A DNA stretch of 64,000 bases from the human T2T-CHM13v2.0 reference genome, Homo sapiens, in assembly GCF_009914755.1 (NCBI RefSeq), contig NC_060946.1, one strand, 5' to 3'. Shown in pieces: positions 20,078 through 22,643 of this stretch. Under the pieces are notes generated by a model. It was not told the origin of the DNA, did not search any database, and saw nothing but the letters and a program-made list of their open reading frames with translations. The translations under genes and the position numbers were made by a program. The stretch's first letter is position 1, and each line of letters begins with the position of its first letter.

Positions 20078-20282
20078 CTGGTGGTAGAGGCTGGGCACAG
20101 ACTGACCTCCAGAAGAAGTCCATGGGCCCTCTGCTAGGGTGGCACCAGACTTCCCTGGTCCCACAGGACAGCCAGTGGCCTCCTAGCTTAGTTCTGGGCC
20201 CCCGCCTGCAAGCACACGTGGCAAGGAGGGCTTCAGCAGGCTCGCAGAACCGAGTGGCAAGGCCCCTGCTCCCAGAAGCTGG
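20078..20282. repeat. Inverted repeat arm A (non-Alu) in NFAM1 3' UTR
   Basis: Reverse complement of 22441-22643, with 12 substitutions and one 2-nt indel by manual alignment. Confidence 0.95.
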
Positions 20283-21059
20283 TTTCCCAGGATGATTTTC
20301 TCAAGCAAGTGCTGACAGAGCAGGAGTCAAGCGGGGGTGGGGTTGGAGGCTGAAACCCATTGAAGGGGTCAACTTCCTAGAGGCAGGCAGGGATGCCTGG
20401 GGGTGCCAGACGTGGCTGAGATGTTTCTGCAGAGGGGAGGTTGGGAAGACCTAGGAGGGCAGGGCAGGCTGGGCCGGGAGAGATGGTGGGAAATCCCACC
20501 AGGTCAGGGGCCAGTGGGCAGAGGGAAGCATCAGCTGAGACCCAGAGACAGGGCTGCCCTGCTGCGGTAGGGCCCAGGGGCAGGGGCCTGCAGGGGCTGC
20601 CTGGGGCTTCCCTTCCCCACCCTAACTCCAGTCCCCACTCAGGACTGCTCACATCCGTCCGTCCTGGAAGGTCCACAGCTCCCCTTCACCTAGGCCTCAC
20701 CTACTCCACTCAAGCCACCCCATCCCCCTTAGCTTTTCCCCTCCAGGCCCATTCATTCAGCTCCTGCTAAGCCAGCACCCTCCTTCCCTCACCTCTCTGC
20801 TTACCTTGCTCCCACCCCCAGCTCTGGGCAGCCCTGGCCTGTCCATCTGATCGTGCTACCCCGTAGGCACTCCTTAAAGGCATGGCTGCAGAGAGCCTGG
20901 GCCCAGCTCCCAGGGAGGCCTGCCTCTCACTTAGACTCCTCTGTACTGCCCCAGAAGCCTATTCCTTCTGAAGGACGAGTCTTGAAGGAAATGCACACCC
21001 ACTGAGCTTCTGCCTGAGCCAGGGAGTCCCCTTCTGTCCTTTCTGAGACACTGAGTAGT

Positions 21060-21359
21060 GTTTGTTTGTTTGTTTATTTGGACAGAGCGTGCTCTGTAGC
21101 CCAGGCTGGTGTGCAGTGGTGCCACTTCGGCTCACTGCAACCTCTGTCTCCCAGGTTCAAGAGATTCTCCTGCCTTAGCCTCTCGAGTAGCTGGGACTAC
21201 AGGTGCGTGCCACCACACCAGGCTAATTTTTGTATTTTTAGTAGAGACGGGGTTTCACCACGTTGGCCAGGCTGGTCTCAAACTCCTGGCCTCAAGTGAT
21301 CCACCCGCCTCGGCCTCCCAACATGCTGGGATTACAGGCATAAGCCACTACGCCTGGCC
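21060..21359 (-). mobile_element. Single Alu inside the NFAM1 3' UTR (sense to the mRNA)
   Basis: Antisense Alu consensus on the plus strand with a (tttg)n tail. Confidence 0.92.
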
Positions 21360-22440
21360 TGAGCTGTCTTGACTGTCACTGCAAACTGAGGCTCAGGTGG
21401 CCAGTGACTTGCCCAAGTCCACAAGGCTGTGGGAGGTGGAGCAGGGATTCAAGGGAGGCCCTGAGGCCACCCAGCCTGGGTGGGTCTCAAAAGCAATTTT
21501 CTTCTCTTCCCTCCTCCACCCATTCATAGTGGAAAGCAAGCCTGCACCCCAGGAGCTCCCATTCATACCCTCTCTGTCCCCTCTCTGTTCTTCCTCCTCC
21601 CGCCTGCCCCATGCACCTCCCACCCTGAAGTTCCCTGCCACCCCTCGCCCTGTGCCAGCTTGTCTCTGCAGGCTCTCAGTCCTGGGGGCTGGAGAACAGG
21701 TGCTCAGTCCTCTTTGCTGCCCACAGAAGTCTCAGAACATTCTTGCCCCACCCTCCCTTGGGCCAAAGCCCTTTAGGGTCCCGTCCTTTCATGCTGTGCT
21801 CTCCTCCTCCTCCTCCTCCTCCCTGCCTCTCTCCTTGCTCACTGAAGACCTCAGCACCCACTGCCTCCCAGCCTTGCCCTGAACCAAGCACAGACGACCA
21901 CCACGCTGGCAATGTCTCTGTCCACCAGAGGGGTGATGGGTCAGCCCCCAAGAACCTCCTACGCCACAGGGAGGAGTTGGAATTTTATTCCAAGTGAGGC
22001 AAAAACCATGCAAGGTATAGAGCAGGGGAGGCCAAGGCCAGGTGTGGGTTTAATCGGGGTCTGTCGGTGGCAGGGCAGCTGCAGGGAGGCCGTGTTGGTG
22101 ATGCCTGGGCCAGGGCACAGTGGTAAAGTTTAACCCAGGCTCCCCTGTCTACCCCTGAAAAAGACTGGAAAATGCTGAGTCCCAGCCAAGGGTCCAGGGT
22201 CTAGGAGCTGAGGTCAGAGAGGCCCAGGAGGTGGGGGAGGCAGGCCCAGTGAGGTGGCCCTCTCCTGGTCTTGCTGGCTTCGGTTTTCCCAGGGGAGCTC
22301 ACTGCACCCTGAGCGGCATTGTCCCCCATTGCCCTGACCCTTGCCCCCACCTCCTTGGCTGGTGGAGCCAGGAGCCTGGGAGGCCCCTGTGCACACCTGG
22401 CAGCTTCACCTCCCCAAACAGGCCCGGAGTTCATTCAAAT

Positions 22441-22643
22441 CCAGCCTCTGGGAGCAGGGGCCTTGCCACTCGGTTATGTGAGCCTGCTAAAGCCCTCCTT
22501 GCCATGTGTGCTTGCAGGCGGGGGCCCAGAACCAAGTTGGGAGGCCACTGGCTGTCCTGTGGGACCAGAGAAGTCTGGTGCCACCCTAGCAGGGCCAAGG
22601 GACTTCTTCTGGACGTCAGTCTGTGCCCAGCCTCTACCACCAG
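22441..22643. repeat. Inverted repeat arm B (non-Alu) in NFAM1 3' UTR
   Basis: Reverse complement of 20078-20282. Confidence 0.95.

What the first reader, a model, noticed from the sequence alone, without database searches (positions are those of the whole stretch)
20078..22643. Non-Alu ~205-bp inverted repeat in the NFAM1 3' UTR: a built-in long dsRNA stem
Seen: 20078-20282 is the reverse complement of 22441-22643 (12 substitutions + one 2-nt indel, ~93% identity), separated by 2158 bp. I do not recognise the arms as Alu or another common repeat, and the edges are sharp. In the mRNA, 4 of the differences become G-U wobbles and 4 become A-C mismatches. Established: long 3' UTR duplexes are substrates for ADAR1 (which favours A-C mismatches), Staufen, PKR/MDA5 and Dicer, and affect export, stability and translation; nearly all human examples are inverted Alus. 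Inference: an immune-receptor mRNA carries its own unique-sequence dsRNA element, from a local inverted duplication or kept similar by gene conversion. The arms could also mediate inversion of the 2.2-kb spacer.
Basis: partly seen in the sequence, partly recalled or inferred. Interest (0 to 1): 0.8.

Follow-up and report, generated by a model that had tools for sequence, protein, structure and literature searches.

The report
Unique inverted repeat in NFAM1 3' UTR
The NFAM1 messenger RNA tail carries two ~206-base copies of a unique sequence in opposite orientation that should fold into a long RNA double helix, much like the common inverted-Alu pairs, and it looks like a decaying primate-age duplication rather than a purpose-built element.

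Summary
Window 20078-20285 is the reverse complement of 22438-22643: 208 columns, 13 substitutions, one 2-nt indel, 92.8% identity, 2,152-bp spacer. Both arms lie in the annotated NFAM1 3' UTR (19411-24164). A T2T whole-genome search finds each arm only at these two places, whereas the spacer's Alu gives 3,758 candidates. There is no target-site duplication and no homology beyond the edges, so this is a local inverted duplication, not a transposon.

In mRNA sense the arms pair over 195 of 206 nt, with a longest helix of 51 bp and about -440 kcal/mol. That matches a typical edited inverted-Alu pair. It falls below the >300 bp, >96% paired criteria used for MDA5-grade dsRNA.

One paper lists a recurrent A-to-I site in the NFAM1 3' UTR. 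By a coordinate conversion that rests on recalled hg38 coordinates, it falls in arm B.

The differences look neutral: 4 G-U against 4 A-C, and no identical tract longer than 29 bp. This gives no sign of selection for pairing or of recent gene conversion, and makes the arms a poor inversion substrate.

Verdict: a real but ordinary new member of a known kind (non-repetitive intramolecular dsRNA, ADAR substrate).

The parts
22438..22643 (-). Arm B: the 5' (upstream) arm of the duplex in the NFAM1 mRNA, 206 nt
   Evidence: Present in T2T only here and at arm A. 195 of its 206 nt pair with arm A in the minimum-free-energy fold.
20078..20285 (-). Arm A: the 3' (downstream) arm of the duplex in the NFAM1 mRNA, 208 nt
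   Evidence: Two copies genome-wide. No target-site duplication.
20286..22437 (-). Spacer, forming a 2,152-nt loop. Unique sequence except for one Alu.
   Evidence: each half matches only itself, apart from a 57-bp direct repeat and one 36-bp hit on contig C23.
21058..21361 (-). Alu element inside the loop, in sense orientation in the mRNA
   Evidence: Many in-window matches. Rfam Metazoa_SRP-like hits on the minus strand. 3,758 first-look candidates genome-wide.
19411..24164 (-). Annotated NFAM1 3' UTR (terminal exon 19411-24224 of NM_145912.8), which contains both arms
   Evidence: Hub gene table. The reading frame ends in a stop codon at 24165-24167 on the minus strand. ATTAAA at 19433 precedes the annotated 3' end.
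21984..22054 (-). Two candidate proximal poly(A) signals between the arms (ATTAAA starting at 22054, AATAAA starting at 21989). Transcripts ending here would lack arm A.
   Evidence: Hexamer scan only; their use was not tested. A third AATAAA at 21078 lies in the Alu tail.
22500..22515 (-). Approximate place (point estimate 22509, an A on the minus strand) of the published recurrent A-to-I site GRCh38 chr22:42383508
   Evidence: PMC8363879 Table 1. The conversion to window coordinates uses a recalled GRCh38 3' end of NFAM1 (42,380,410) and was not verified by any tool. The base identity was read.
22479..22537 (-). Three A-C mismatches with the A in arm B (22537, 22505, 22479). The fourth has its A in arm A at 20184. 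These are the predicted preferred ADAR sites.
   Evidence: Derived from the substitution list. The ADAR preference for A-C mismatches is established knowledge (recalled).

Best explanation
This is a local inverted duplication of about 206 bp of unique sequence inside the long NFAM1 3' UTR. It is probably of primate age and not derived from a transposon.

In transcripts that run to the annotated distal poly(A) site, the two copies pair into a ~195-bp imperfect RNA duplex. Its longest uninterrupted helix is 51 bp, its free energy is about -440 kcal/mol, and it closes a 2.15-kb loop. In strength and geometry this equals a typical edited inverted-Alu pair.

Its most likely molecular consequence is binding and promiscuous A-to-I editing by ADAR1. 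It may also bind other dsRNA-binding proteins, because 51 bp is long enough for PKR or Staufen-type binding. It is not an MDA5-grade ligand.

The sequence differences fit neutral decay of the duplicate, so the element is most likely an incidental passenger and not a selected regulatory device.

Shown: the DNA repeat, its two-copy status, its place in the annotated UTR, and the predicted fold. Inferred: duplex formation in cells, editing of the arms, the age, and neutrality.
For: - Repeat: real and highly significant.
- Copy number: only two copies in the 3.1-Gb T2T assembly. The same tool returns 3,758 candidates for the Alu in the spacer, and it picked up matches as short as 57 bp at 86% and 36 bp at 92%.
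- Not a transposon: no target-site duplication and no extension of homology.
- Fold: in a 2,766-nt mRNA-sense stretch, 195 of 206 arm B positions pair with arm A. Helices are 29, 14, 6, 51, 31, 25, 2, 35 and 2 bp. Forbidding arm pairing costs 437 kcal/mol. The arm-to-arm duplex alone is -442 kcal/mol.
- Comparison with edited dsRNAs: PMC11838218 Table 1 (passages) gives medians for edited repetitive dsRNAs of 297 bp, -410.8 kcal/mol, 84.7% paired, 31 contiguous bp and a 2,035-nt loop.
- Editing: PMC8363879 Table 1 lists a recurrent site at chr22:42383507-42383508, minus strand, T>C, NFAM1 3' UTR, GRCh38. Using the recalled GRCh38 3' end it maps to about window 22509. That is an A in the mRNA, inside arm B, 4 nt from the A-C mismatch at 22505.
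- Neutral pattern: 8 transitions split 4 G-U to 4 A-C (binomial p = 1.0). There are 5 transversions and a 2-nt indel. Two differences are CpG-to-CpA changes. Identical tracts are at most 29 bp.
- Age: K2P distance is 0.066. This gives about 33 Myr at 1e-9 per site per year, with a range of 17-54 Myr from the Poisson interval.
Against: - No RNA data were available, so duplex formation, co-occurrence of both arms on one molecule, and editing of the arms are not shown directly.
- Three poly(A) hexamers lie between the arms. If they are used, they give transcripts without arm A.
- The placement of the published editing site depends on recalled hg38 coordinates. The site could instead lie in the 3' UTR Alu, which has an inverted Alu partner in the last intron (21058-21359 against 25404-25097, 78.7%).
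- No outgroup sequence was available. The age, which arm is the copy, and neutrality against constraint therefore rest on 13 substitutions only.
- NFAM1 was absent from the held supplements of three dsRNA and editing papers. Two of those studies used cell types or thresholds that would not include it.
Confidence: 0.6

Rival explanations
1. A selected regulatory element. The duplex is kept because it tunes NFAM1 mRNA export, stability or translation. Alternatively, it couples NFAM1 expression to interferon-induced ADAR1 in myeloid cells.
For: The duplex sits in the mature 3' UTR of an immune receptor mRNA. Inverted duplicated sequences are generally depleted from mRNAs, more strongly so for non-repeat ones (PMC7006430, passages), so a survivor could be functional. 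The NFAM1 site is one of only 5 editing sites recurrent in two melanoma cohorts and is associated with response (PMC8363879).
Against: Nine of 13 substitutions and the indel break pairing. G-U against A-C is 4 to 4, which shows no bias towards pair-preserving changes. There are no conservation data. Survival of a 206-bp, 93% identical repeat for tens of Myr needs no selection. The association with therapy response may simply track myeloid infiltration and interferon or ADAR activity.
Confidence: 0.15
2. A feature of the DNA only. Most NFAM1 mRNA ends at a proximal poly(A) site between the arms, or the 2.15-kb loop folds locally first. The long duplex would then rarely form, and the published editing site would come from the 3' UTR Alu paired with the intronic Alu in the pre-mRNA.
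For: AATAAA or ATTAAA hexamers at 22054, 21989 and 21078 lie between the arms. An inverted Alu partner lies 3.7 kb away in the intron. My mapping of the site is not tool-verified.
Against: The selected RefSeq transcript runs to 19411 and includes both arms (hub table). The recalled conversion lands on an A within arm B, 1.15 kb from the Alu. A loop of about 2 kb is the median for edited dsRNAs (PMC11838218 Table 1).
Confidence: 0.15
3. An old inverted repeat kept similar by gene conversion (concerted evolution), and so much older than 93% identity suggests.
For: Inverted repeats a few kb apart can undergo intrachromosomal conversion (general knowledge, recalled).
Against: There is no long identical tract. 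The maximum is 29 bp, against a simulated mean maximum of 44 bp; P(max <= 29) = 0.063. Arms of 206 bp at 93% identity are poor conversion substrates.
Confidence: 0.07
4. Terminal inverted repeats of a DNA transposon, or two copies of an unrecognised repeat family.
For: The layout (two inverted ~200-bp ends around a ~2-kb interior) resembles a long-TIR element.
Against: Arms and interior are single-locus in T2T, with a working positive control. There is no target-site duplication. Very old families below about 80% identity could escape the search, but they could not explain 93% identity between the arms.
Confidence: 0.03

Closest known systems
Inverted-repeat Alu pairs (IRAlus) in human 3' UTRs. 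Recalled examples are NICN1, LIN28 and CTSS; the ZNF426 AluY pair is named in PMC11838218.
   Same: Two inverted copies in one 3' UTR. Duplex of a few hundred bp with mismatches, a loop of about 2 kb, similar free energy (-442 against a median of -411 kcal/mol), and an expected ADAR1 substrate.
   Different: The arms are unique two-copy sequence, not SINEs. Pairing is tighter (94.7% against a median of 84.7%) and the duplex shorter (206 against 297 bp). The arms can pair only with each other, with no competing partners elsewhere in the transcriptome.
Non-repetitive intramolecular dsRNAs catalogued by dsRNAscan (PMC11838218)
   Same: Same class by definition: inverted complementary arms that do not overlap annotated repeats and lie within 10 kb.
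   Different: It is larger and more stable than the median edited member (206 bp and -442 kcal/mol against 144 bp and -185 kcal/mol). It lies in a mature 3' UTR, whereas 96% of predicted dsRNAs in protein-coding genes are intronic. I could not check whether this locus is in their tables because the supplements were closed.
Immunogenic MDA5 substrates: IR-ERV in the MRPL19 3' UTR and cis-NAT duplexes such as STUB1:JMJD8 (PMC12695637, section 10 read)
   Same: An exonic or UTR dsRNA that would reach the cytoplasm. A non-Alu source of dsRNA.
   Different: Those are longer (650-1,539 bp for the cis-NATs) or perfectly paired. That paper found short loops to favour immunogenicity, and here the loop is 2.15 kb. 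NFAM1 is not in its two held supplement files; the study used HEK293T cells and NPCs.
Small local inverted duplications produced by replication template switching (FoSTeS/MMBIR type; recalled)
   Same: A short segment copied in inverted orientation a few kb away, with no target-site duplication and sharp edges.
   Different: The mechanism is inferred only. No junction microhomology could be established without the ancestral sequence.

Membership tests
Alu or other multi-copy transposable element | Many dispersed copies in the genome | tested here: not met
   Arms: 2 candidates, 2 scored, both at this locus. Alu control: 3,758 candidates. In-window copy depth is 2, against 47-54 for the Alu pairs.
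DNA transposon with terminal inverted repeats | Target-site duplication flanking the element, and other copies of the interior | tested here: not met
   No shared flank k-mer next to the arm ends. The interior is unique in T2T.
Intramolecular long dsRNA / ADAR substrate | Inverted complementary arms within one transcript | tested here: met
   Both arms lie in terminal exon 19411-24224 (hub table), downstream of the stop codon at 24165-24167.
Intramolecular long dsRNA / ADAR substrate | A stable, long, largely uninterrupted predicted helix | tested here: met
   195 of 206 nt paired, longest helix 51 bp, -437 to -442 kcal/mol.
Intramolecular long dsRNA / ADAR substrate | Clustered A-to-I editing on both arms | tested here: inconclusive
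   There is one published recurrent site in the NFAM1 3' UTR (PMC8363879). It is placed in arm B only through recalled hg38 coordinates. There are no data for arm A.
MDA5-grade immunogenic dsRNA (criteria of PMC11838218 and PMC7006430) | Longer than 300 bp | tested here: not met
   206-208 bp.
MDA5-grade immunogenic dsRNA (criteria of PMC11838218 and PMC7006430) | More than 96% paired or identical | tested here: not met
   92.8% identity. 94.7% paired when G-U pairs are counted (195 of 206).
Palindrome kept by gene conversion | Near-identical arms or long identical conversion tracts | tested here: not met
   14 differences; the longest identical tract is 29 bp.
Recurrent inversion substrate (NAHR between inverted repeats) | Long stretches of perfect identity between the arms (roughly 200 bp or more; recalled threshold) | tested here: not met
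   Maximum of 29 bp of perfect identity. Inversion calls in population data are not testable here.

The most novel reading that the evidence does not exclude
The duplex is a primate-specific, selected switch in a myeloid ITAM-receptor mRNA. Interferon-induced ADAR1 p150 edits it (or PKR or Staufen binds it) and so tunes NFAM1 output during inflammation. When under-edited, it is one of the few unique-sequence cytoplasmic self-dsRNAs that myeloid cells must neutralise. Its editing level would then be a direct read-out of myeloid interferon and ADAR activity in tumours.
Probability: 0.08. Interest if true: 0.7.

Novelty: new member of a known kind. Interest (0 to 1): 0.38.

Why it matters
Nearly all human dsRNA in mature mRNAs comes from inverted Alus, whose many possible partners make structure-function tests ambiguous. 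A two-copy, unique-sequence duplex in the 3' UTR of a myeloid immune receptor has only one possible partner for each arm. It is therefore a clean natural test case for how a 3' UTR duplex affects editing, dsRNA-binding proteins and expression. It may also explain why an NFAM1 3' UTR site recurs among editing markers in tumour RNA-seq. Nothing here suggests a new mechanism. Its size and mismatches put it with ordinary ADAR substrates, not with the rare immunogenic dsRNAs.

Tried and rejected
- Transposon origin: rejected on copy number and the lack of a target-site duplication.
- Larger decayed palindrome or duplication around the arms: a sensitive self-comparison found only the arms and one 49-57-bp direct repeat.
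- Known RNA family in the arms: an Rfam scan of 19000-24500 at E up to 1 gave 6 hits. Five are Alu-derived at 21082-21358. One is a weak hit at 22824-22928 (23.4 bits against a gathering score of 55). None lies in the arms.
- Literature on this element: searches for NFAM1 with 'RNA editing' and 'ADAR' (3 papers), 'inverted repeat' (1 paper), 'A-to-I' (3 papers) and 'polyadenylation' (12 papers, none on NFAM1 3' ends by title or abstract) found only PMC8363879 to be relevant. PMC10453518 mentions NFAM1 only as a miR-342-3p target.
- Coordinate searches: searches for the site and for the gene ends found nothing further. One search was badly designed because NFAM1 was not required, and it served only to find general dsRNA papers.
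- Supplement look-ups for NFAM1: 0 occurrences in 1 file of PMC8363879, 2 files of PMC12695637 and 3 files of PMC7006430. They may hold this locus, so I cannot say that it is uncatalogued.
- Earlier findings of this scan were not open.
- Cross-species dating and population inversion calls could not be attempted, because no other eukaryotic genome is held.
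Full report
**Observation**

The inverted repeat is real. The repeat finder reports two adjoining inverted pairs, 20131-20285/22438-22592 (155 nt, 94%) and 20078-20130/22591-22643 (53 nt, 94%). A gapped alignment joins them into one repeat, 20078-20285 against 22643-22438. 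It has 208 columns, 13 substitutions and one 2-nt gap. Identity is 92.8%, with E = 3.8e-84 in the window. The alignment runs 3 bp further, with one more mismatch. The spacer is 2,152 bp.

Eight substitutions are transitions and five are transversions. Three of the A-C mismatches carry the A in arm B (22537, 22505, 22479) and one carries it in arm A (20184).

**What it is not**

The arms are not a transposable element.
- A search of the whole T2T assembly (3.1 Gb) with arm A or arm B finds two places only, the arms themselves (2 candidates, 2 scored).
- The same tool, given the Alu that lies in the spacer, reports 3,758 first-look candidates. With the spacer halves it picked up matches as small as 57 bp at 86% and 36 bp at 92%. 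A family with copies above roughly 85% identity would therefore have been seen.
- Older families could escape the search, but they could not account for 93% identity between the two arms.
- There is no target-site duplication at either arm.
- A low-stringency self-comparison of 18500-25000 with the Alu masked shows no homology beyond the arm ends.
- Rfam has nothing in the arms.
- Within the 64-kb window, 22 inverted pairs are at least 100 bp long, at least 85% identical and within 10 kb of each other. Of these, 21 are Alu pairs (in-window copy depth 47-54). This is the only two-copy pair, and it is also the most similar.

**Where it lies**

The hub's RefSeq table gives the terminal exon of NM_145912.8 as 19411-24224, with coding sequence ending at 24165. 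Translation of the minus strand confirms a stop codon at 24165-24167. An ATTAAA at 19433 precedes the annotated end. Both arms are therefore in the annotated 4,754-nt 3' UTR. Arm B comes first in the mRNA and arm A second.

The loop holds one Alu (21058-21361) in sense orientation. It also holds three further poly(A)-type hexamers, at 22054, 21989 and 21078. If these are used, the resulting transcripts would lack arm A. Their use could not be tested.

**Predicted RNA structure**

The two arms alone form a duplex of -442 kcal/mol. In a minimum-free-energy fold of 2,766 nt of mRNA-sense sequence (window 19978-22743), 195 of the 206 arm B positions pair with arm A. The helices are 29, 14, 6, 51, 31, 25, 2, 35 and 2 bp long. 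Forbidding the arms to pair costs 437 kcal/mol.

For scale, PMC11838218 (dsRNAscan; passages read) gives these medians for edited repeat-derived human dsRNAs: 297 bp, -410.8 kcal/mol, 84.7% paired, 31 contiguous bp and a 2,035-nt loop. The medians for the 4,597 edited non-repetitive dsRNAs are 144 bp and -184.8 kcal/mol. The NFAM1 duplex is thus as stable as a typical edited inverted-Alu pair and lies well above the median non-repetitive one. Its loop length is ordinary for edited structures.

It does not reach the criteria for MDA5-grade dsRNA, which are >300 bp and >96% paired. Both PMC11838218 and PMC7006430 (passages read) use those criteria. PMC12695637 (abstract and section 10 read) found that immunogenic dsRNAs in HEK293T cells are 90% Alu, 8% other repeats and 2% non-repetitive. 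The non-repetitive ones it describes are cis-natural antisense pairs. It also found that short loops favour immunogenicity. By those results the NFAM1 element is an unlikely MDA5 trigger.

**Evidence that it is edited**

Four literature searches paired NFAM1 with another term. They yielded one relevant paper, PMC8363879 (passages read). Its Table 1 lists chr22:42383507-42383508, minus strand, T>C, NFAM1, 3' UTR. This is one of five A-to-I sites recurrent in two melanoma immunotherapy cohorts, called de novo on GRCh38.

I have no liftOver. From memory, the GRCh38 3' end of NFAM1 is 42,380,410, which corresponds to window 19411. This puts the site at about window 22509. That base is an A on the mRNA strand. 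It lies inside arm B, paired with a U of arm A, 4 nt from the A-C mismatch at 22505.

Arm B is only about 4% of the 3' UTR, so a mistaken conversion would rarely land there. I therefore take the placement as probable (about 0.8) but not shown. The main alternative is the 3' UTR Alu, which has an inverted partner in the last intron (78.7% identity) and could be edited in the pre-mRNA.

**Origin and evolution**

The K2P distance between the arms is 0.066. With 13 substitutions, the Poisson interval is 3.4-10.8%. At 1e-9 substitutions per site per year this gives about 33 Myr, with a range of 17-54 Myr. Other plausible rates move the point estimate between 15 and 66 Myr. This fits a duplication in the primate lineage, but no other mammalian genome is held, so it is untested.

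The differences are spread evenly. Identical tracts are at most 29 bp, while random placement gives a mean maximum of 44 bp and P(max <= 29) = 0.063. There is thus no footprint of recent gene conversion. The arms also offer very little perfect identity for homologous recombination, which makes recurrent inversion of the spacer unlikely.

The substitutions show no tendency to preserve pairing. Among the transitions, 4 give G-U and 4 give A-C (p = 1.0). All 5 transversions and the indel disrupt pairs. Two differences are CpG-to-CpA changes in arm B. This is the pattern of a neutrally decaying duplicate. With so few changes and no outgroup it cannot exclude weak constraint.

Sharp edges and the lack of a target-site duplication fit a replication template-switch type of inverted duplication. 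This is an inference.

**Mechanism proposed**

In long-UTR NFAM1 transcripts the arms pair and recruit ADAR1. The A-C mismatches and the adenosines in the 25-51-bp helices are deaminated. Other dsRNA-binding proteins may also bind. Any effect on NFAM1 expression is probably modest and incidental.

I give about 0.6 to this passenger ADAR-substrate reading. The other readings get 0.15 for a selected regulatory element, 0.15 for a duplex that rarely forms because of proximal polyadenylation or local folding, 0.07 for an old repeat homogenised by conversion, and 0.03 for a transposon origin.

**Novelty**

I found no description of this element in the main text of the searched literature. I therefore cannot say that this locus is absent from published tables. 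It is a new, clean example of a known kind and not a new kind.

**Limits**

No RNA-seq, editing database, repeat annotation, cross-species alignment or population data could be consulted.

Noticed in passing
window 20741-20797 and 23382-23437: A second local duplication in the same 3' UTR. It is a 57-bp direct repeat (86%; the 49-bp core is 88%). Like the arms, it has only these two copies in T2T. It is not collinear with the inverted repeat, so it was a separate and probably older event.
   Followed up: partly
window 21058-21361 and 25091-25463: The sense-oriented Alu in the 3' UTR loop has an inverted Alu partner in the last intron, about 3.7 kb away (78.7% identity). This gives a pre-mRNA-only inverted-Alu duplex that could also attract ADAR.
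   Followed up: no
window 22054, 21989, 21078 (minus strand): Three poly(A)-signal hexamers lie between the arms, one of them in the Alu tail. They could give shorter 3' UTR isoforms that lack arm A and so lack the duplex.
   Followed up: no
window 22824-22928 (+): A weak Rfam match to NPPA-AS1_3 (23.4 bits against a gathering score of 55, E = 0.037). It is most likely a chance match.
   Followed up: no
window 18492-18528 and 25381-25431: Short simple-repeat-like matches (34-37 bp, up to 97%) on either side of the terminal exon. This is low-complexity sequence of no evident significance.
   Followed up: no
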